Source of the DNA: Promethearchaeota archaeon
GTDB lineage: Archaea > Asgardarchaeota > Lokiarchaeia > Sigyniarchaeales > SOKP01
Direction: 5' to 3'
NCBI GenBank assembly: GCA_019058295.1
Contig: JAHPZI010000007.1
Coordinates: 47,465-111,464 of the forward strand
DNA length: 64,000 nucleotides
The translations under genes were made by a program, and so were the position numbers. The stretch's first letter is position 1. The number at the start of each line of letters is the position of its first letter. The notes under the pieces are model-generated. The model did no database searches and was not told the DNA's origin. It saw only the letters and a program-made list of their open reading frames with translations. Positions 4,227 to 9,576 of the stretch are shown piece by piece.

Positions 4227-5177
4227 ATGAGATTAGTAGGACCATCAGAGAAAAAACCATTCGAAGATCTATTCGAGGTATATTTATTATTCCTTGATGA
4301 GACTCGAGGAAACATGCCCTTCTTAATTCATCCTGATGAATCCATTAAAAACAATAAAGAAAAGATGCGTCCAATAAAGATTCATAGTGTTTGGTGGACA
4401 GATATGGAGGATCAAGCTGTAATGGATCACATTGATCTAGAATATAGTAATAGAACGTATTTAGCAAGGAAGTTCTTAACATTATCAAAAAGGAGTCAAC
4501 ATCGGATTGGAACAACCTTTGATAATATTGAAACTATTACAATTATATTTGTTTTGCCTTCTAATCTATATATTTTTGGTGTAGATCTTCTAAATAAACT
4601 GACAACAAATATTATAACAAATTTCGAGGGACAATTATATAAAGTGATTGAATCAGAAATTGCAAAAGAAGAGATAATTAAATCTGATAAAATTATAGAG
4701 ACTATTAAAATAGGAGAAAAGGTTAAACAAAAATTAAAAAATCTTATTGTAAATACTTGTAAAGATTTTTTTTCTTCAGTTATTAAAGAAGATAATAAGA
4801 ATTCAATTGAACTGCAGAAAGCAATTTCTTATTTTTCTCTTAAAGGGATAGATTCTAGTGATGAAAGGAATTCCTTTTCAAAAATTAAAGTTTTTGAACC
4901 AAAAATAGGGGACAACAACAATGAATTTGAAATTATTGTTCAAAACAATTCTCAAAAGGAATATAATAATCTTTCTATAAAAATAACCTATTTAAAGGAA
5001 TTTCTCGAAACAGAAATAATGAATTATCCTATAGATAATTGGTTCCCAGAAGAGGAATTATTGTTTATTTCTCCAATTATTCCTAATGTTAACGAGTATC
5101 ATTTATTTATTGAACACAATAAGAATCAATGTTTTTCAAAAAAAATAGATTTAAATGCATTCATTAAATATAATTAG
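4227..5177 (+). CDS. uDENN/longin-like N-terminal domain plus C-terminal Ig-like beta domain, paralog 1
   Basis: YLLFLDETRGNMPFLIHP resembles the uDENN/longin beta1-beta2 motif; shares DHIDLE, KEEIIK, QKAxSY and WFPEEELLFISPIIPN with the next ORF. Confidence 0.6.
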   Translation: MRLVGPSEKKPFEDLFEVYLLFLDETRGNMPFLIHPDESIKNNKEKMRPIKIHSVWWTDMEDQAVMDHIDLEYSNRTYLARKFLTLSKRSQHRIGTTFDNIETITIIFVLPSNLYIFGVDLLNKLTTNIITNFEGQLYKVIESEIAKEEIIKSDKIIETIKIGEKVKQKLKNLIVNTCKDFFSSVIKEDNKNSIELQKAISYFSLKGIDSSDERNSFSKIKVFEPKIGDNNNEFEIIVQNNSQKEYNNLSIKITYLKEFLETEIMNYPIDNWFPEEELLFISPIIPNVNEYHLFIEHNKNQCFSKKIDLNAFIKYN

Positions 5178-5196: not shown

Positions 5197-6240
5197 TTGA
5201 TGGCTGACTTATTTAATTCTAAATCACCAGAAAAAGCATTAAAAGAAGAAATCTGTGTGGTTTATATTCTTTATTTTGACGAAGCTAAAGGTCATGTTCC
5301 ACTCCTAATTTTTCCATTTGAAGAAGGATATAAACTTAAAGATGATAAGCGATTTATGCGACCTATCAAATATCATCCTGTATGGTTTTTATCTATTGAA
5401 GAACAAGAACCATTGGATCATATCGACCTCGAATTTAAAGGTTATACTTTTTTCGGTAAAAAATTTCTAACTAAATCTAAGAGAAAAAAAAGACGAGCTG
5501 GTCTTAAGGAGGAATCTCCTGAGATAATTGTTGTAATTGCATCGGTGTCAAATGATATAGCAATCTTCGGGGATGAACTTATTCATTTAATAACAGACGA
5601 AATCAAAGAGAAATTTGATGACAAATTGTTTAAAATTATTGAATGTGAGATTGCTAAAAATGAAATTATTAAAACTCCAGAGATCAAGAAAATCATTGAA
5701 GAAGGCATGAAAATAAAGGAAGATCTTAATAAGTTGATTCGTAAAATTACTGACAACTATTTTCTCAATGCAATAAAGCAAAAAGATTTACATTCAATGA
5801 ACCAACAAAAAGCACTTTCATATTTAGCTTTAAAAGGAATTGATGTATCATCCATAAGTGATAAAAAAAAACCTGATTATTTTTTAAATATTAAATTATT
5901 TGATCCCTCTATAAAATCCGCAAATGAATTAGCGCTAAAAGCACCATTTATTATAACTAGTGTAACTTTAATCGAAGATAGTCAAGAATTAGAAATTACG
6001 GTTCAAAATAATACGGGAAAAGAAATTAAGGATGTGATCATAAATATTACCCATTTAAAAGAATTTTTTGAAAAAGAAATTATGGAACAAGATATTGATC
6101 TATGGTTTCCTGAAGAAGAATTGTTATTTATCTCACCTATTATTCCTAATATTAACGAATATCTCTTTTTCATCACCAAGAAAGAAAATAAAGAAAAAAT
6201 CCTCTCAAAAAAAATTGATTTAAAATCTTTAAAAAATTAA
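5197..6240 (+). CDS. uDENN/longin-like N-terminal domain plus C-terminal Ig-like beta domain, paralog 2
   Basis: YILYFDEAKGHVPLLIFP; C-terminal ELEITVQNNTGKEIKDVIINIT; tandem paralog of 4227..5177. Confidence 0.6.
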   Translation: MMADLFNSKSPEKALKEEICVVYILYFDEAKGHVPLLIFPFEEGYKLKDDKRFMRPIKYHPVWFLSIEEQEPLDHIDLEFKGYTFFGKKFLTKSKRKKRRAGLKEESPEIIVVIASVSNDIAIFGDELIHLITDEIKEKFDDKLFKIIECEIAKNEIIKTPEIKKIIEEGMKIKEDLNKLIRKITDNYFLNAIKQKDLHSMNQQKALSYLALKGIDVSSISDKKKPDYFLNIKLFDPSIKSANELALKAPFIITSVTLIEDSQELEITVQNNTGKEIKDVIINITHLKEFFEKEIMEQDIDLWFPEEELLFISPIIPNINEYLFFITKKENKEKILSKKIDLKSLKN

Positions 6241-6257
6241 TTAATTTGATTAGAAAA

Positions 6258-6746
6258 ATGTCAAATAATATTCTTAAAGAAGATGAAATCATAATAAGAA
6301 ACTATCGGACCTCTGATTATGAAGCAACACTTGAAATATTAAAGCAACTTGATAAAGAATTAGATATTGGATTTAAAGAGGAACAGTGGAAACAATCCTC
6401 TGGTCTACGACAATTTAAACCTAATTTAAAACGTATAACTCTTATAGCTGAATTAAAATCGACTGGTGAAGTTGTAAGTATGGGGATGCTTGAAGCAGTA
6501 AAAAATAGTTTAGGCCAATATGTTGGTTATCTGGATAACTGGTCTACAAAAAAAGAATTTATTGGTAAAGGCGTTGGAAAAATACTGGCGGACAGAGCCA
6601 TTCAAATACTTAAATCATGGGGTTGTACTTCAGTAAGAATTAATATGGGTTATAATGTAAGTAAAAAAATAATCGATGTTATTTGTAAAGGACAAGGATT
6701 TTCTCCCGTTTTTATAGTTTTAGAAAAGAAATTTGATGAAACATAA
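6258..6746 (+). CDS. GNAT family N-acetyltransferase
   Basis: IIIRNYRTSD start; motif A-like KEFIGKGVGKIL; G-C-x-x-V-R-I. Confidence 0.8.
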   Translation: MSNNILKEDEIIIRNYRTSDYEATLEILKQLDKELDIGFKEEQWKQSSGLRQFKPNLKRITLIAELKSTGEVVSMGMLEAVKNSLGQYVGYLDNWSTKKEFIGKGVGKILADRAIQILKSWGCTSVRINMGYNVSKKIIDVICKGQGFSPVFIVLEKKFDET

Positions 6747-6916: not shown

Positions 6917-8383
6917 GTGATTGGAATAAAAACGTTTGGTGCATATTTGCCAAAGTATTTAATGCCCCGGGAGTTAGTTGCTAAAGCTTAGTTTAGTTCA
7001 AATTAAGCGGAAAAAGCATGGGATTTTCCATCTATGCCAGGGACTAAAGCTTTGGCTAATTCTGACGAAGATAGTATTACAATGGGAGTAGAAGCTGGTC
7101 TTGACTGTATAACTGGAATAGATCCTAAAACAATTGATGGACTTTTTTTTGCAACAACCACTCAAGTTTATACAGAAAAAAATTCAGCAGCATTTATAGC
7201 AAATATATTAGATTTAAGGGATGAGATTATTACTGCAGACTTCACAGATTCCTTAAGGGCAGGAACCACTGCTGTATGTAGGGCAGTCGAAGCTATAAAA
7301 GCAAATAAGGATATTAAAAGTATCCTTGTTATCGCTGCTGATACTAGAGAACCTGAACCAGGTACATTTTGGGAATATGGTTTGTCTGATGGGGCTGCTG
7401 CCTTACTTATTGCGGAAGAAGATTTATTACCACTTTCAATTGAAGATTATTATTCAGTTTCGGCAAATGTTACTGGTCCTTGGAAAAAACCTACAGATAA
7501 ATTCATTAAAACATTTCAAGATAAAATGGATAATAAATTCTATTTTGAAAGCTTAACAAAAGCTATGAGTGGACTTTTAGAGAAAAATAATTTAAAACCT
7601 GAAGAAATTGCTAGTGCTGCGTACCATTATCATGATCCTAGGGTACTTGGGATAGTTTCTAAAATGATGAAATTTCCTCAAGGTGTTGCTCAAAATGGAT
7701 TATTTCTTCAAATAGGGTGTGTTGGAACTCCAATGGCATTCTTGTTATTGATGTCTGCTTTAAGAAGACCCAAACCTGATACTAAAATAATTTTTGCGGG
7801 ATATGGAGATGGTGCTGATGCAATTTTATTACAAGTAAAAGATAAAGATCTTTTAAAAGCTTCAAATAAGGGAAGAATGGGCTTGTTAAAACACCAAAAA
7901 TCTATGGCACAATTAAAAAATTATAATACGTTAATCGAAAATAAGAAACTTATCGATAGACATAGATATTCAAGAAGGAGTTCAGCTGTTACACTCTGGC
8001 GGGATACTAAATCTTTATATCAGATGTATGGGATTAAATGTAAAAACTGCGGAACTATTCAATATCCAGCGATGTTTAAAGGTTGCTATAACTGCAGAAC
8101 AGATGATCAATTTGAATTTGTAAAACTCTCTTTAAAAGGGACTGTTTTTACTTATACTTTGGATCATTTGTATGGAGGGAGTTATTTAAATACTCCTGTA
8201 CCGAGATGTATAATTGACTTAGAAGGCGGTGGGCGTATAATGCTTGATATGACTGAAATTGAAAATCCAACTGAAAATGTCAAAATTGATATGCCGGTTG
8301 AATTAACTTTCCGATTAATGCATGAAGGCGGAGAATTCCGCAATTATTATTGGAAATGTCGCCCTGTAAGGGGGAGACCATAA
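6917..8383 (+). CDS. HMG-CoA synthase-like domain fused to DUF35 (Zn-ribbon + OB fold); interrupted by a 30-nt in-frame insert; 478 aa if the insert is removed
   Basis: GTG 6917 opens MIGIKTFGAYLPKYLMPRELVAKA (typical family N-terminus), in frame with ATG 7034. DEDSITMGVEA, SDGAAA, GYGDGADA; CKNC/CYNC; C-terminal YYWKCRP. Confidence 0.85.
6985..7014 (+). other. 30-nt stop-containing insertion: candidate BHB-type mRNA intron
   Basis: In-frame TAG (6989) and TAA (7004). 9-bp hairpin 6986-6994/7000-7008. AAA bulges at 6983-85 and 7013-15. Flanked by direct repeat AAAGC. Removal gives ...VAKAWDFPSMPG. Confidence 0.6.
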
Positions 8384-8397
8384 GAGAGGTGAAAAGA

Positions 8398-9576
8398 ATG
8401 GTTAGAAAAGGAATTGCAGATAAAATTGCGATAATAGGATGTGACGCCACAAAATTTGGTGAAAGATGGGATAAAAATCAATATGATTTATTATACGATG
8501 CAGTTAAAGGTGCCAGAGATGATGCTGGAATAACTAAGGATGAGATTGATGCGGTTTGGGTTGGGATATTTTATTTCTTTACAGGGCTTTCAGGGGCAGT
8601 AGTAGAAGATATTTTAAGATTGGATGGGAAACCAGTTACTAGAACGGAGAATTACTGTGCATCGGGAATGGATGCTTTCAGAAATGCTTGTTTTGCTCTT
8701 GCTGGTAATGCATATGATGTTGTTCTAGCATGTGGTGTAGAAAAATTAATGGATGAGGCCTCTAGTGGATTACCTGGCTTTGAATTGTTTGGTCATCCCA
8801 CATTACCTATACCTTCTGCTCCAGCAATGTTTAGCTTGGCAGCAACAAGATCATTTCACACATGGGGGTGGACTAAGGAGGATTTAGCTCGGGTTGCTGT
8901 TAAAAACCATGAAAATGGCTCTCATCATCCAAAAGCACATTTTCGGAGACCAACTACAATTGAAAAAGTAATGAGAGATGTTATGATTGCAGACCCCTTA
9001 GGGAGATCTGATTGTTGTGCAATGAGTGATGGAGCAGCAGCTTTAATCTTAACAAGAATAGAAGATGCTCCAAGTTATTCTTCGCACAAGGATGATTATA
9101 TAGTTGTAAAAGCGAATGCGATATCTTGTCAAACAAATACTCCTTGGTATAATCCAAATCACACCTTCACAAGTTTTCCAGCAACAGTAAAAGCTGCGAA
9201 AATGGCTTACAAAGAGGCAGGTATTACAGATCCTAGAAAACAAATCGATTGTGCTGAAGTTCACGATTGTTTCACGATTACTGAACTTTTAAATTGCCAA
9301 GATTTACAATTCTGTGAGATGGGAAAAGCAGCTGAAGAATTAAAAAACGGAACTTTTAATTGGGATGGTGAAACTGCAGTTAATCCATCCGGTGGTTTAA
9401 AATCCTTCGGTCATCCAATAGGTGCTACAGGATGTAGAATGCTACAAGAAATAACCAAACAACTTCAAGGAAGAGCCGAAGGCAGACAAGTTCCTGACGC
9501 AAAAATTGGTTTGGCTCATAATCTTGGCGGAGCATTTTGTGTCTGTAGTACTAGTATTTTAGGACAAGCAGATTGA
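8398..9576 (+). CDS. Thiolase family protein (archaeal/SCP2-type acetyl-CoA acetyltransferase)
   Basis: ENYCASG, SDGAAA, AEVHDCF, NPSGG, GHPIGATG, HNLGG; SD GAGGTGA before ATG 8398. Confidence 0.92.
   Translation: MVRKGIADKIAIIGCDATKFGERWDKNQYDLLYDAVKGARDDAGITKDEIDAVWVGIFYFFTGLSGAVVEDILRLDGKPVTRTENYCASGMDAFRNACFALAGNAYDVVLACGVEKLMDEASSGLPGFELFGHPTLPIPSAPAMFSLAATRSFHTWGWTKEDLARVAVKNHENGSHHPKAHFRRPTTIEKVMRDVMIADPLGRSDCCAMSDGAAALILTRIEDAPSYSSHKDDYIVVKANAISCQTNTPWYNPNHTFTSFPATVKAAKMAYKEAGITDPRKQIDCAEVHDCFTITELLNCQDLQFCEMGKAAEELKNGTFNWDGETAVNPSGGLKSFGHPIGATGCRMLQEITKQLQGRAEGRQVPDAKIGLAHNLGGAFCVCSTSILGQAD

What the first reader, a model, noticed from the sequence alone, without database searches (positions are those of the whole stretch)
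6917..7040. Candidate bulge-helix-bulge mRNA intron inside an Asgard protein-coding gene
Seen: GTG 6917 encodes the typical HMG-CoA-synthase-family start (MIGIKTFGAYLPKYLMPRELVAKA), in frame with the annotated ORF, but 10 extra codons containing TAG (6989) and TAA (7004) intervene. As RNA: UGCU(6979-82)-AAA bulge(6983-85)-stem GCUUAGUUU/AAAUUAAGC (9 bp, one G.U, loop AGUUC)-GGAA(7009-12)-AAA bulge(7013-15). Known: archaeal splicing endonuclease cuts after the 2nd nt of each 3-nt bulge flanking a 4-bp helix, and BHB introns in mRNA have precedent (crenarchaeal cbf5). Cutting there removes exactly 6985-7014 (30 nt) and gives GCU AAA GCA UGG = ...VAKAWDFPSMPG, a continuous protein. The other ~450 codons are intact, which argues against old pseudogenisation. 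Caveats: the central helix pairs only 3 of 4 (G.A mismatch), the exon-exon helix is weak, and the AAAGC direct repeat at both ends also fits a target-site duplication from a mobile-element scar or an assembly artefact. Inference: an intron, possibly regulatory, gating a lipid/CoA-metabolism operon.
Basis: partly seen in the sequence, partly recalled or inferred. Interest (0 to 1): 0.92.

Follow-up and report, generated by a model that had tools for sequence, protein, structure and literature searches.

The report
tRNA-type mini-intron in Asgard mRNA
A 30-base hairpin with two stop codons interrupts an otherwise healthy lipid/CoA-metabolism gene of a Loki-type Asgard archaeon. It is most likely cut out of the messenger RNA by the tRNA-splicing enzymes, which papers report for only one other archaeal protein gene (cbf5).

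Summary
GTG 6917 opens a 23-codon N-terminal exon in frame with the 449-codon ORF at 7034. A 30-nt insert (6985-7014) with TAG and TAA separates them.

- **The insert is real and fixed.** All 10 independent DNA sequences of one well-supported clade carry it. Every more distant orthologue lacks it and reads straight through (…AKAWDFP…).
- **The gene is under purifying selection** (dN/dS 0.08-0.33). The 449-aa ORF lacks the first ~40 positions of the HMG-CoA-synthase fold, which exon 1 supplies.
- **One RNA contig lacks exactly these 30 nt.** It comes from a sediment metatranscriptome and is 96.6 % identical to the window.
- **The genome encodes a two-subunit (αβ) splicing endonuclease.**
- **Two other genes have the same architecture with perfect bulge-helix-bulge motifs:** uL11 in this genome and rtcB in two congeners.

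Caveats: here the central helix pairs only 3 of 4, no compensatory changes exist, the free-energy fold prefers another pairing, and the RNA evidence is one low-depth contig.

Verdict: a relaxed BHB mini-intron, probability about 0.8. It is a new member of the cbf5 kind. A regulatory role is untested. The scan had already noted similar mini-introns on other DNA of this genome. I found no paper on them.

The parts
6917..6984 (+). Exon 1: GTG start plus 22 codons and 2 nt (MIGIKTFGAYLPKYLMPRELVA-K). It supplies the N-terminal strand of the HMG-CoA-synthase-like fold.
   Evidence: same start and sequence as 15 uninterrupted orthologues; the 449-aa ORF begins only at profile position 42/347 and at PDB residue ~42-46; the RNA contig starts at 6930, so exon 1 is transcribed together with exon 2.
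6985..7014 (+). 30-nt mini-intron by the BHB cut rule. Any register from 6983-7012 to 6988-7017 gives the same product because of the AAAGC repeat. It holds TAG 6989 and TAA 7004.
   Evidence: present in 10 DNA sequences, with only 3 of 30 columns variable (6985, 6996, 7011); exactly 30 nt are left out at 6983 in RNA contig X18 record 10.
6986..7008 (+). Inner helix h': a 9-bp hairpin (one G.U) with the 5-nt loop AGUUC.
   Evidence: -7.5 kcal/mol. The stems are invariant in 10 sequences and the only change is in the loop (G6996A in L026). It is unique in the genome and occurs only in this gene in public genomes.
6979..6982 (+). 5' strand of the central 4-nt helix H (UGCU, exonic).
   Evidence: It pairs with GGAA 7009-7012 as U-A, G.A (mismatch), C-G, U.G, so the motif is relaxed. 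It is invariant in 10 sequences.
6983..6985 (+). 5' bulge AAA. The predicted cut is after 6984.
   Evidence: Sequence. In G002 the third nt is U. The cut rule then still gives Lys.
7009..7012 (+). 3' strand of the central helix H (GGAA, intronic).
   Evidence: Position 7011 (the mismatch partner) is A>G in G002, so it stays a mismatch.
7013..7015 (+). 3' bulge AAA. The predicted cut is after 7014.
   Evidence: Sequence. The 3' bulge is also AAA in the uL11 and rtcB mini-introns.
7015..8383 (+). Exon 2: the rest of the HMG-CoA-synthase/PhlA-like domain fused to a DUF35/OB-fold (ChsH2_C) domain, through the stop codon.
   Evidence: No stop or frameshift in any clade member, and dN/dS is 0.08-0.33.
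8350..9576 (+). Downstream thiolase (acetyl-CoA acetyltransferase family) gene, overlapping exon 2 by 34 nt. It is the likely operon and complex partner.
   Evidence: NF004810, 494 bits. The same neighbour is seen.

Best explanation
The 30 nt at 6985-7014 are an archaeal tRNA-type (bulge-helix-bulge) mini-intron inside the coding sequence of an HMG-CoA-synthase/PhlA-like-DUF35 fusion gene of a Promethearchaeota (Loki-type Asgard) archaeon.

Proposed mechanism:
1. The gene is transcribed from upstream of GTG 6917.
2. In the pre-mRNA a 9-bp hairpin (6986-7008) is flanked by two AAA bulges. These are held 4 positions apart by a relaxed helix (UGCU/GGAA, 3 of 4 pairs).
3. The heterotetrameric (alpha-beta)2 splicing endonuclease cuts after the second nucleotide of each bulge.
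4. RtcB joins the exons to give GCU AAA GCA UGG (…VAKAWDF…), and the 30-nt intron is released, probably as a circle.
5. Only the spliced mRNA encodes the full 478-aa enzyme. Unspliced mRNA terminates at TAG after 24 residues.

Shown here: the insert is real, fixed and conserved; the gene is under purifying selection; exon 1 is needed to complete the fold; an RNA form lacking exactly the 30 nt exists; the endonuclease genes are present; and the same cut rule restores conserved motifs in two other genes.

Inferred: that EndA and RtcB are the enzymes acting, the exact cut sites, and circularisation.
For: 1. **Conserved insert.** All 10 DNA sequences of one clade carry the insert at the same site. 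They comprise 5 MAGs (G000, G007/AMARA_1S, G005/TEKIR_6S, G002/QM1B.325, GCA_019058335), 3 JGI contigs, 1 ENA contig and 1 Logan contig. Nine of them group at 100/99 support. The tenth, L025, was too short for the tree and has a different exon background. The sister clade (Loki_b32 and others) and 15 further orthologues lack the insert.
2. **Purifying selection.** dN/dS is 0.08-0.33 with dS up to 0.16, and there is no stop or frameshift in 1434 nt.
3. **Conserved intron sequence.** 3 of 30 intron columns vary, against 20 of 66 third-codon positions nearby (Fisher p = 0.04). The stems are invariant.
4. **Exon 1 is needed.** The 449-aa ORF starts at HMGCS profile position 42/347 and at residue 42-46 of solved PhlA/HMGCS chains.
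5. **Joined RNA form.** In metatranscriptome X18 a 262-nt contig lies on 6930-7221 with 9 mismatches and exactly 30 nt left out at 6983. Intron-clade DNAs differ by 6-14 mismatches over the same stretch. The intron-less sister differs by 52.
6. **Enzymes.** Two EndA paralogues are present, one with and one without the catalytic His. Asgard (alpha-beta)2 EndA carries the L1 loop linked to relaxed-motif cleavage (PMC5829648). RtcB is present in 5 of 5 congeners.
7. **Same architecture elsewhere.** The pattern is a 4-nt helix, a bulge, a 6-9-bp hairpin, a 4-nt helix and an AAA bulge, 29-30 nt in all. With 4/4 central pairs it restores GPPIGPVVGPTGIN in uL11 of this genome. It also restores GYDINCG in rtcB of G002 and G006, where two substitutions both keep pairing.
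8. **Precedent for relaxed motifs.** cbf5 introns also often have relaxed motifs and go with hetero-oligomeric EndA (PMC2738675).
Against: - The central helix has a G.A mismatch and a G.U pair, and the outer exon-exon helix is only 2 bp.
- The strict BHB conformation is energetically disfavoured (-3.1 against -10.1 kcal/mol for UGCU/AGCA pairing). The fold z-score is only -1.33.
- There are no compensatory changes, because the stems never vary, so the structure rests on conservation rather than covariation.
- The RNA evidence is a single assembled contig at depth 2.5 from one run. No unspliced RNA or matched DNA from that sample was seen at the site.
- A 5-nt direct repeat flanking a hairpin is a classic context for reverse-transcriptase template switching.
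- Presence/absence polymorphism exists among close relatives (L025 against G006). An intron-less DNA allele in the RNA sample is therefore not excluded.
- RtcB was not found in G000 itself, which is 79 % complete.
- No spliced-form protein fragment of this clade is in the 5.8-billion-protein collection.
Confidence: 0.78

Rival explanations
1. No RNA processing: the joined RNA contig comes from an intron-less DNA allele, or from reverse-transcriptase template switching at the AAAGC repeat. The cell then lives with a protein that starts at Met 7034 (449 aa), with or without the 24-aa N-terminal peptide acting in trans.
For: ATG 7034 follows 9 nt after a weak SD-like GGGAU. All gene callers annotate the 449-aa form. 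Intron presence/absence is polymorphic between close lineages. The RNA evidence is one contig at depth 2.5.
Against: - The Met at this position is also present in the intron-less sister and outgroup proteins (P0003, P0004, P0005, G006). It therefore did not evolve as a rescue start.
- The truncated ORF lacks about 40 N-terminal positions of the thiolase-like fold, including the first core strand.
- Exon 1, its GTG start and its SD stay intact in all 10 sequences.
- All 10 clade DNAs carry the insert, while the only RNA contig at within-clade identity lacks it.
- This explanation cannot account for the 29-nt frame-shifting insert in the only rtcB copy of G002 and G006, or for the TAA in uL11.
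Confidence: 0.08
2. Programmed translational bypassing, as in phage T4 gene 60 or mitochondrial 'byps'. The ribosome takes off at GCU 6986-88, which is followed directly by UAG inside the 5' arm of a hairpin. It then lands on GCA 7016-18, skipping 27 nt and giving the same protein.
For: A take-off codon followed by UAG inside a stem-loop, with a synonymous Ala landing codon, is visible in the sequence. The product would equal the orthologue junction.
Against: - An RNA form without the 30 nt exists, whereas bypassing leaves the gap in the mRNA.
- GCU and GCA are normally read by different tRNA-Ala species (own knowledge).
- The uL11 and rtcB inserts have no matched take-off and landing codons that give the conserved spacing, while the BHB cut rule does.
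- Bypassing has not been reported in archaea (own knowledge).
Confidence: 0.04
3. A recent neutral insertion scar (MITE or IS footprint with a 5-bp target-site duplication) in a gene that is now a pseudogene, or an assembly artefact.
For: AAAGC direct repeats flank the insert. The insert carries two stops.
Against: - There is no other copy within 3 mismatches in the 3.2-Mb genome. Exact copies occur only in this gene in 185,579 species genomes.
- The insert is present in 10 independent assemblies from at least 5 sources.
- dN/dS is 0.08-0.33 and there are no further lesions across dS 0.16.
- The repeat is imperfect in G002 (AAUGC/AAAGC).
Confidence: 0.03

Closest known systems
BHB intron in the cbf5 (pseudouridine synthase) pre-mRNA of Crenarchaeota (Watanabe 2002; Yoshinari 2006; Yokobori 2009, PMC2738675)
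   Same: A short intron lies inside an archaeal protein-coding sequence and must be removed for a functional protein. The bulge-helix-bulge motif is often relaxed. It is associated with hetero-oligomeric (alpha-beta)2 splicing endonuclease, and its phylogenetic distribution is patchy through gain and loss.
   Different: A different phylum (Asgard/Promethearchaeota, not TACK) and a different gene (a metabolic HMGCS/PhlA-like-DUF35 fusion). The size is a minimal 30 nt. It is one of several such introns in the same genus (uL11 and rtcB verified here; others only noted by the scan). Splicing is supported here by one metatranscriptome contig, not by RT-PCR or enzymology.
Archaeal tRNA introns with canonical and relaxed BHB motifs (hBHBh', HBh', hBH; Marck and Grosjean 2003; PMC5829648)
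   Same: The predicted geometry and cut rule are the same (after the 2nd nt of each 3-nt bulge). The size range matches the tRNA introns of this genome (13-54 nt), and the enzymes are the same.
   Different: It sits in an mRNA with no tRNA body to help recognition. The central helix has a G.A mismatch. Rfam finds no family here.
Unconventional cytoplasmic splicing of HAC1/XBP1 mRNA (IRE1 cut, tRNA ligase Trl1/RtcB joining)
   Same: A very short (26 nt in XBP1) non-spliceosomal intron in a coding sequence is removed by endonuclease cuts in RNA structure, followed by RtcB-type ligation. Removal changes or restores the reading frame (own knowledge; RtcB/HAC1 is cited in the reference list of PMC5829648).
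   Different: The cutting enzyme is IRE1 acting on two stem-loops, not EndA acting on a BHB. That system is stress-regulated, and no regulation is shown here.
Translational bypassing elements (T4 gene 60; mitochondrial byps of Magnusiomyces)
   Same: A short stop-containing hairpin insert in a coding sequence, with a stop right after a potential take-off codon, leaves the protein uninterrupted.
   Different: Those elements stay in the mRNA. Here an RNA lacking the insert exists, and the sister inserts in uL11 and rtcB fit BHB cutting rather than codon-matched hopping.

Membership tests
Archaeal BHB (EndA/RtcB-spliced) intron | Two 3-nt bulges on opposite strands, separated by a 4-bp helix and flanked by helices (hBHBh' or a relaxed form) | tested here: inconclusive
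   The bulges AAA/AAA and the 9-bp inner helix are present. The central helix pairs 3 of 4 (U-A, G.A, C-G, U.G) and the outer helix has 2 bp. The BHB conformation is worth -3.1 kcal/mol against -10.1 for a competing pairing. This counts as a relaxed motif, of the kind accepted by (alpha-beta)2 enzymes according to PMC5829648 and PMC2738675.
Archaeal BHB (EndA/RtcB-spliced) intron | Cutting after the 2nd nucleotide of each bulge gives a functional, orthologue-like exon junction | tested here: met
   It removes 6985-7014 and gives …ELVAKAWDFPSMPG, identical in register to 15 uninterrupted orthologues and to the sister clade. The same rule works for uL11 and rtcB.
Archaeal BHB (EndA/RtcB-spliced) intron | A joined (intron-less) RNA exists while the DNA carries the intron | tested here: met
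   One RNA-library contig (X18 record 10, depth 2.5) has exactly 30 nt left out and 9 mismatches in 262 nt. All 10 clade DNAs carry the intron. The nearest intron-less lineage differs by 52 mismatches in 262 nt. This is weak in depth, and there is no matched DNA from that sample.
Archaeal BHB (EndA/RtcB-spliced) intron | The host encodes a splicing endonuclease able to cut relaxed motifs outside tRNA | tested here: met
   Two PF01974 paralogues of about 201 aa are present, one with and one without the catalytic His. This indicates the (alpha-beta)2 type. Asgard EndA is reported to carry the L1 loop (PMC5829648).
Archaeal BHB (EndA/RtcB-spliced) intron | The host encodes the RtcB ligase | tested here: inconclusive
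   Not found in G000, which is 79 % complete. Found in 5 of 5 congeners, including the intron-bearing G007, G005 and G002.
Archaeal BHB (EndA/RtcB-spliced) intron | 2',3'-cyclic phosphate and 5'-OH ends; a circular excised intron | not testable with these tools
   This needs circRNA-seq or biochemistry.
Translational bypass element (gene 60 type) | The gap is retained in the mature mRNA | tested here: not met
   An RNA contig lacking the 30 nt exists.
Translational bypass element (gene 60 type) | Matched take-off and landing codons, a stop after take-off, and a take-off hairpin | tested here: inconclusive
   GCU-UAG lies in the hairpin arm and GCA is the possible landing codon. The two codons are synonymous but not identical.
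MITE / IS footprint | Multiple dispersed copies with target-site duplications | tested here: not met
   There is a single copy in the genome at up to 3 mismatches. Exact copies elsewhere occur only in the same gene of 3 related MAGs.
HMG-CoA synthase (equivalog) | Score above the curated NCBIfam/TIGRFAM cut-off | tested here: not met
   NF003274 scores 154 bits against a cut-off of 244, and TIGR00748 scores 99.7 against 353. The best solved relatives are PhlA (9skh, 5m3k), then archaeal HMGCS 6esq_I with DUF35 6esq_E. It is best called an HMGCS/PhlA-like condensing-enzyme domain fused to DUF35.

The most novel reading that the evidence does not exclude
This intron may be one visible member of a genome-wide, evolutionarily dynamic system of ~30-nt tRNA-type mini-introns in the mRNAs of this Asgard genus.
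- **Reach:** it would affect metabolic genes, ribosomal proteins, actin and even the RNA ligase RtcB that completes splicing. RtcB's own mRNA would then need splicing, creating a self-referential loop.
- **Spread:** the introns may move between lineages by recombination. L025 carries a 100 % identical copy of this intron with a donor-like exon tract of about 45-60 nt, inside an otherwise G006-like, normally intron-less gene.
- **Consequence:** routine endonuclease/ligase splicing of mRNAs would then exist in the closest archaeal relatives of eukaryotes.
Probability: 0.5. Interest if true: 0.92.

Novelty: new member of a known kind. Interest (0 to 1): 0.8.

Why it matters
In the papers I could search, endonuclease-spliced introns inside archaeal protein-coding sequences are documented essentially for one gene, cbf5 of Crenarchaeota. 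They have not been reported for Asgard archaea.

Here an Asgard metabolic gene can make its full-length enzyme only if 30 nt are removed, and for this locus there is a first piece of RNA-level support. I verified sister cases in uL11 and rtcB, and the scan noted further ones elsewhere in this genome. Together these suggest that the tRNA-splicing machinery routinely processes mRNAs in the lineage closest to eukaryotes. That is mechanistically parallel to HAC1/XBP1 splicing.

Practical consequences:
- Standard gene callers truncate or split such genes. All public records annotate the 449-aa form.
- MAG-based metabolic reconstructions and pseudogene counts for Asgard archaea are therefore biased.
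- The question 'do Asgard archaea splice mRNAs?' becomes directly testable by RT-PCR or circRNA-seq and a simple EndA cleavage assay.

Tried and rejected
- **Metagenome pattern scans.** A pattern catching both joined and unjoined forms found nothing with long flanks. With shorter flanks it found only two unjoined JGI contigs. No joined DNA form was seen, but that collection holds few relatives.
- **Reads laid.** DNA run X4 and RNA runs X17 and X19 gave no cover of the site by within-clade sequence. They covered only 7013-7050, from distant intron-less orthologues.
- **Structure-only census of BHB mini-introns in the 3.2-Mb genome.** It gave 52,329, then 1,866, then 48-53 ORF-restoring candidates at rising stringency. 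Most translate to junk, and the strict filter even misses the true relaxed cases. I abandoned it as a way to count introns. Within the window no second convincing mini-intron emerged.
- **S11 insert.** The S11 gene has an in-frame TAA insert, but my enumerator found no canonical BHB giving the expected SPYAAMQ junction. I left it as non-canonical.
- **Short protein fragments.** I searched for fragments bearing the spliced junction from this clade and found none.
- **Rfam.** Only chance hits far below the gathering scores.
- **Outer helix.** The 7-bp outer helix of the minimum-energy fold (6969-75 with 7022-28) is rejected, because G6973U in L025 and L026 breaks it.
- **'New rescue start codon' idea for Met 7034.** Rejected because the Met predates the intron.
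- **Sequence homology with the uL11 and S11 introns.** Without gaps, 8 of 30 positions match the uL11 intron, so it is not convincing. The uL11 and S11 introns themselves share 21 of 30 positions by eye.
Full report
**1. The observation.**
- GTG 6917 opens MIGIKTFGAYLPKYLMPRELVAKA. Ten extra codons follow, with TAG (6989) and TAA (7004). The same frame then continues AWDFPSMPG… into the 449-codon ORF 7034-8383.
- The insert holds a 9-bp hairpin (6986-6994/7000-7008, one G.U, loop AGUUC). It is flanked by AAA on both sides, with UGCU before and GGAA after.
- On its own the structure is unremarkable. The 66-nt fold has z = -1.33, and its minimum-energy form pairs UGCU with AGCA 7015-18 rather than with GGAA.
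- The strict bulge-helix-bulge (BHB) conformation costs energy relative to the bare hairpin: -3.1 against -7.5 kcal/mol, and -10.1 for the competing pairing.
- My own structural scans of the 3.2-Mb genome give dozens of look-alike, ORF-restoring sites that are mostly noise.

The case therefore rests on comparative and RNA evidence, not on shape.

**2. The insert is real, fixed and single-copy.**
- The 23-nt hairpin has no second copy in the window or the genome at up to 3 mismatches.
- In 185,579 species genomes it occurs exactly only in three other MAGs, always in this gene. These are Promethearchaeota TEKIR_6S and AMARA_1S, and 'Thorarchaeota' QM1B.325.
- Among 40 relatives, four same-genus genomes (G000, G007, G005, G002; protein identity 98, 96 and 91 %) share the insert at the same site. 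Fifteen other orthologues, including four of the same genus, read …LPRELI[AGS]KAWDFP… without interruption.
- Two JGI contigs and four more contigs from NCBI, JGI, ENA and Logan also carry it. That makes ten independent DNA sequences.
- Only three of the 30 columns vary: 6985 (third bulge nt), 6996 (loop) and 7011 (the mismatched helix position). Both stem arms are invariant.

This excludes an assembly artefact and a dispersed mobile-element footprint.

**3. The gene is alive and needs exon 1.**
- Within the clade dN/dS is 0.08-0.33 at dS up to 0.16. No stop or frameshift occurs in 1434 nt.
- The intron varies less than neighbouring third-codon positions (3/30 against 20/66, p = 0.04).
- The 449-aa ORF aligns to HMG-CoA-synthase models only from profile position 42 of 347. 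It aligns to solved PhlA/HMGCS chains from residue 42-46, and its C-terminus matches DUF35. The roughly 33 residues encoded before Met 7034 therefore complete the fold.
- The protein is below the HMGCS equivalog cut-offs. It is best described as an HMGCS/PhlA-like condensing domain fused to DUF35, followed by a thiolase gene (8350-9576).
- The Met at 7034 is also present in intron-less sister and outgroup proteins. It is therefore not a start codon evolved to rescue a broken gene.

**4. Phylogeny.**
- A protein search found near-identical 449-aa gene calls, and a sister cluster of 478-aa uninterrupted proteins that includes Loki_b32.
- In a maximum-likelihood tree the ten 449-aa rows form one clade (100/99). 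I confirmed the intron in the DNA of nine of them. The tenth had no DNA available. This clade is sister to nine intron-less rows, with intron-less outgroups.
- The simplest reading is one gain.

**5. RNA evidence.**
- Of four runs laid, the sediment metatranscriptome X18 holds one assembled contig (262 nt, depth 2.5). It lies on 6930-7221 with 9 mismatches and exactly 30 nt left out at 6983.
- Over that stretch intron-clade DNAs differ from the window by 6-14 mismatches. The nearest intron-less lineage differs by 52. The contig therefore comes from inside the clade in which every DNA sequence carries the insert.
- Logan contigs need the junction k-mers in the reads, so the joined form exists in that RNA library.
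- Three things are not excluded. One is an intron-less DNA allele in that sample, since such polymorphism exists between L025 and G006. Another is reverse-transcriptase template switching at the AAAGC repeat. The third is simply the weakness of a single low-depth contig.
- Other RNA contigs at the site (X17, X18 record 11, X19) are distant, naturally intron-less orthologues.

**6. Machinery and sister cases.**
- G000 encodes two EndA paralogues of about 201 aa, one with and one without the catalytic His. This is the (alpha-beta)2 type. PMC5829648 reports that type for Asgard with the L1 loop associated with cleavage of relaxed motifs.
- RtcB was not found in G000 (79 % complete) but is present in 5 of 5 congeners.
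- In G002 and G006 the only rtcB copy is itself split by a 29-nt insert that folds into a perfect hBHBh'. The elements are UUGG, bulge AUA, a 9-bp hairpin, CCAA and bulge AAA. The plain minimum-energy fold recovers this structure.
- Cutting after the second bulge nucleotide restores the metal-binding GYDINCG motif. The two substitutions between G002 and G006 both keep pairing.
- In G000 the uL11 gene has an in-frame TAA inside a 30-nt insert with a 6-bp outer helix, a 4/4 central helix and a 6-bp inner helix. Removal gives GPPIGPVVGPTGIN with the conserved spacing.
- The S11 gene also has a stop-containing insert, but I could not fit a canonical BHB to it.
- The window's intron has the same architecture and length as these, with a weaker central helix.
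- Notes of this scan list further candidates in the same genome (actin, iorB, GH57, an Fe-S gene, PPi-PFK, Sec61beta, CSP). I did not test those.

**7. Rivals.**
- **Translational bypassing** (GCU-UAG take-off in the hairpin, GCA landing) fits the local sequence. It is contradicted by the joined RNA, and it does not generalise to the uL11 and rtcB inserts.
- **A truncated or split protein starting at Met 7034** is disfavoured by the missing core strand, by the conserved intact exon 1 with its start and SD, and by the ancestral Met.
- **Pseudogene, MITE or artefact readings** are contradicted by sections 2 and 3.

**8. Comparison with the literature.**
- Full-text searches return BHB introns in archaeal coding sequences only for cbf5 of Crenarchaeota. 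There, relaxed motifs and hetero-oligomeric EndA are also noted (PMC2738675).
- A 2026 preprint on Asgard introns treats tRNA genes only.
- This locus is therefore a new member of the cbf5 kind, in a new phylum and gene, with unusually small size.

**9. An unexplained extra.**
- L025 carries an intron 100 % identical to G000's, but its exons are a mosaic.
- Eight informative sites in a row, at spliced positions 50-95 around the intron, match the intron clade. The flanks and the upstream region match the intron-less G006 lineage.
- The two types share only 4 and 9 identical nt at the switch points, so a k-mer assembly chimera is unlikely.
- This looks like lateral transfer of the intron with a short co-conversion tract. 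The alternative is ancestral presence with several losses. Only about 200 nt of that gene are available, so it stays open.

**10. Verdict.** The locus is a relaxed BHB mini-intron removed from the mRNA, most likely by EndA and RtcB (probability about 0.8). The insert, its conservation, selection on the gene, the joined RNA and the sister cases are shown. The acting enzymes, the exact cut sites and any regulatory role are inferred.

Noticed in passing
L031 (G002:C3:15700-16300) about 283-330; L032 (G006:C13:33170-33770) about 282-329: The only rtcB (RNA ligase) gene of two congeners is split by a 29-nt insert that forms a perfect hBHBh' motif. The elements are UUGG, bulge AUA, a 9-bp hairpin, CCAA and bulge AAA. 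Removal restores GYDINCG. The ligase that finishes BHB splicing would thus need its own mRNA spliced. The insert is absent in G007, G001 and G005.
   Followed up: partly
G000:C30:126577-126777 (-), outside the window: The uL11 gene has a 30-nt insert with an in-frame TAA inside the GPPxGPxxGP motif. It forms a canonical BHB (outer helix AGGACC/GGUCCU, central GGUU/AGUC, bulges GUA and AAA). The spliced product is GPPIGPVVGPTGIN.
   Followed up: partly
G000:C1:158644-159027 (-), outside the window: The S11 gene has an in-frame TAA within an insert of about 30 nt after SPYAA. Removing 30 nt would give the expected SPYAAMQ, but no canonical BHB fits. The insert shares 21 of 30 letters with the uL11 intron.
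   Followed up: partly
L025 (JGI Ga0209536_100268230, reverse strand) compared with L042 (G006:C16) and L026: The exons around an identical copy of the intron are a mosaic. A tract of about 45-60 nt resembles the intron clade, inside an otherwise G006-like (intron-less) gene. This suggests lateral intron transfer with co-conversion. The rest of the L025 contig beyond about 200 nt of the gene is unrelated sequence.
   Followed up: partly
G000:C22:30303-33335, outside the window: A dense array of 27 intron-less tRNA genes covers most amino acids. By contrast, about half of the tRNAs scattered elsewhere in the genome carry 13-54-nt introns. It could be a viral or mobile tRNA array, or binned foreign DNA.
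   Followed up: no
G000:C21 about 2,500-46,000 (+), outside the window: A single open frame of about 14,470 codons (roughly 43 kb), which would be a giant protein gene.
   Followed up: no
window 4227-5177 and 5197-6240 (+): Two adjacent paralogous ORFs (316 and 347 aa) with the same motif pattern (…MRPIK.H.VWW…DHIDLE…EEELLFISPIIPN.NEY). I did not examine their family. They lie upstream of a GNAT acetyltransferase (6246-6746).
   Followed up: no
window 7034-8383; public records: All public annotations of this clade call the gene as a 449-aa protein starting at the internal Met. Automatic annotation therefore silently truncates intron-bearing Asgard genes.
   Followed up: yes
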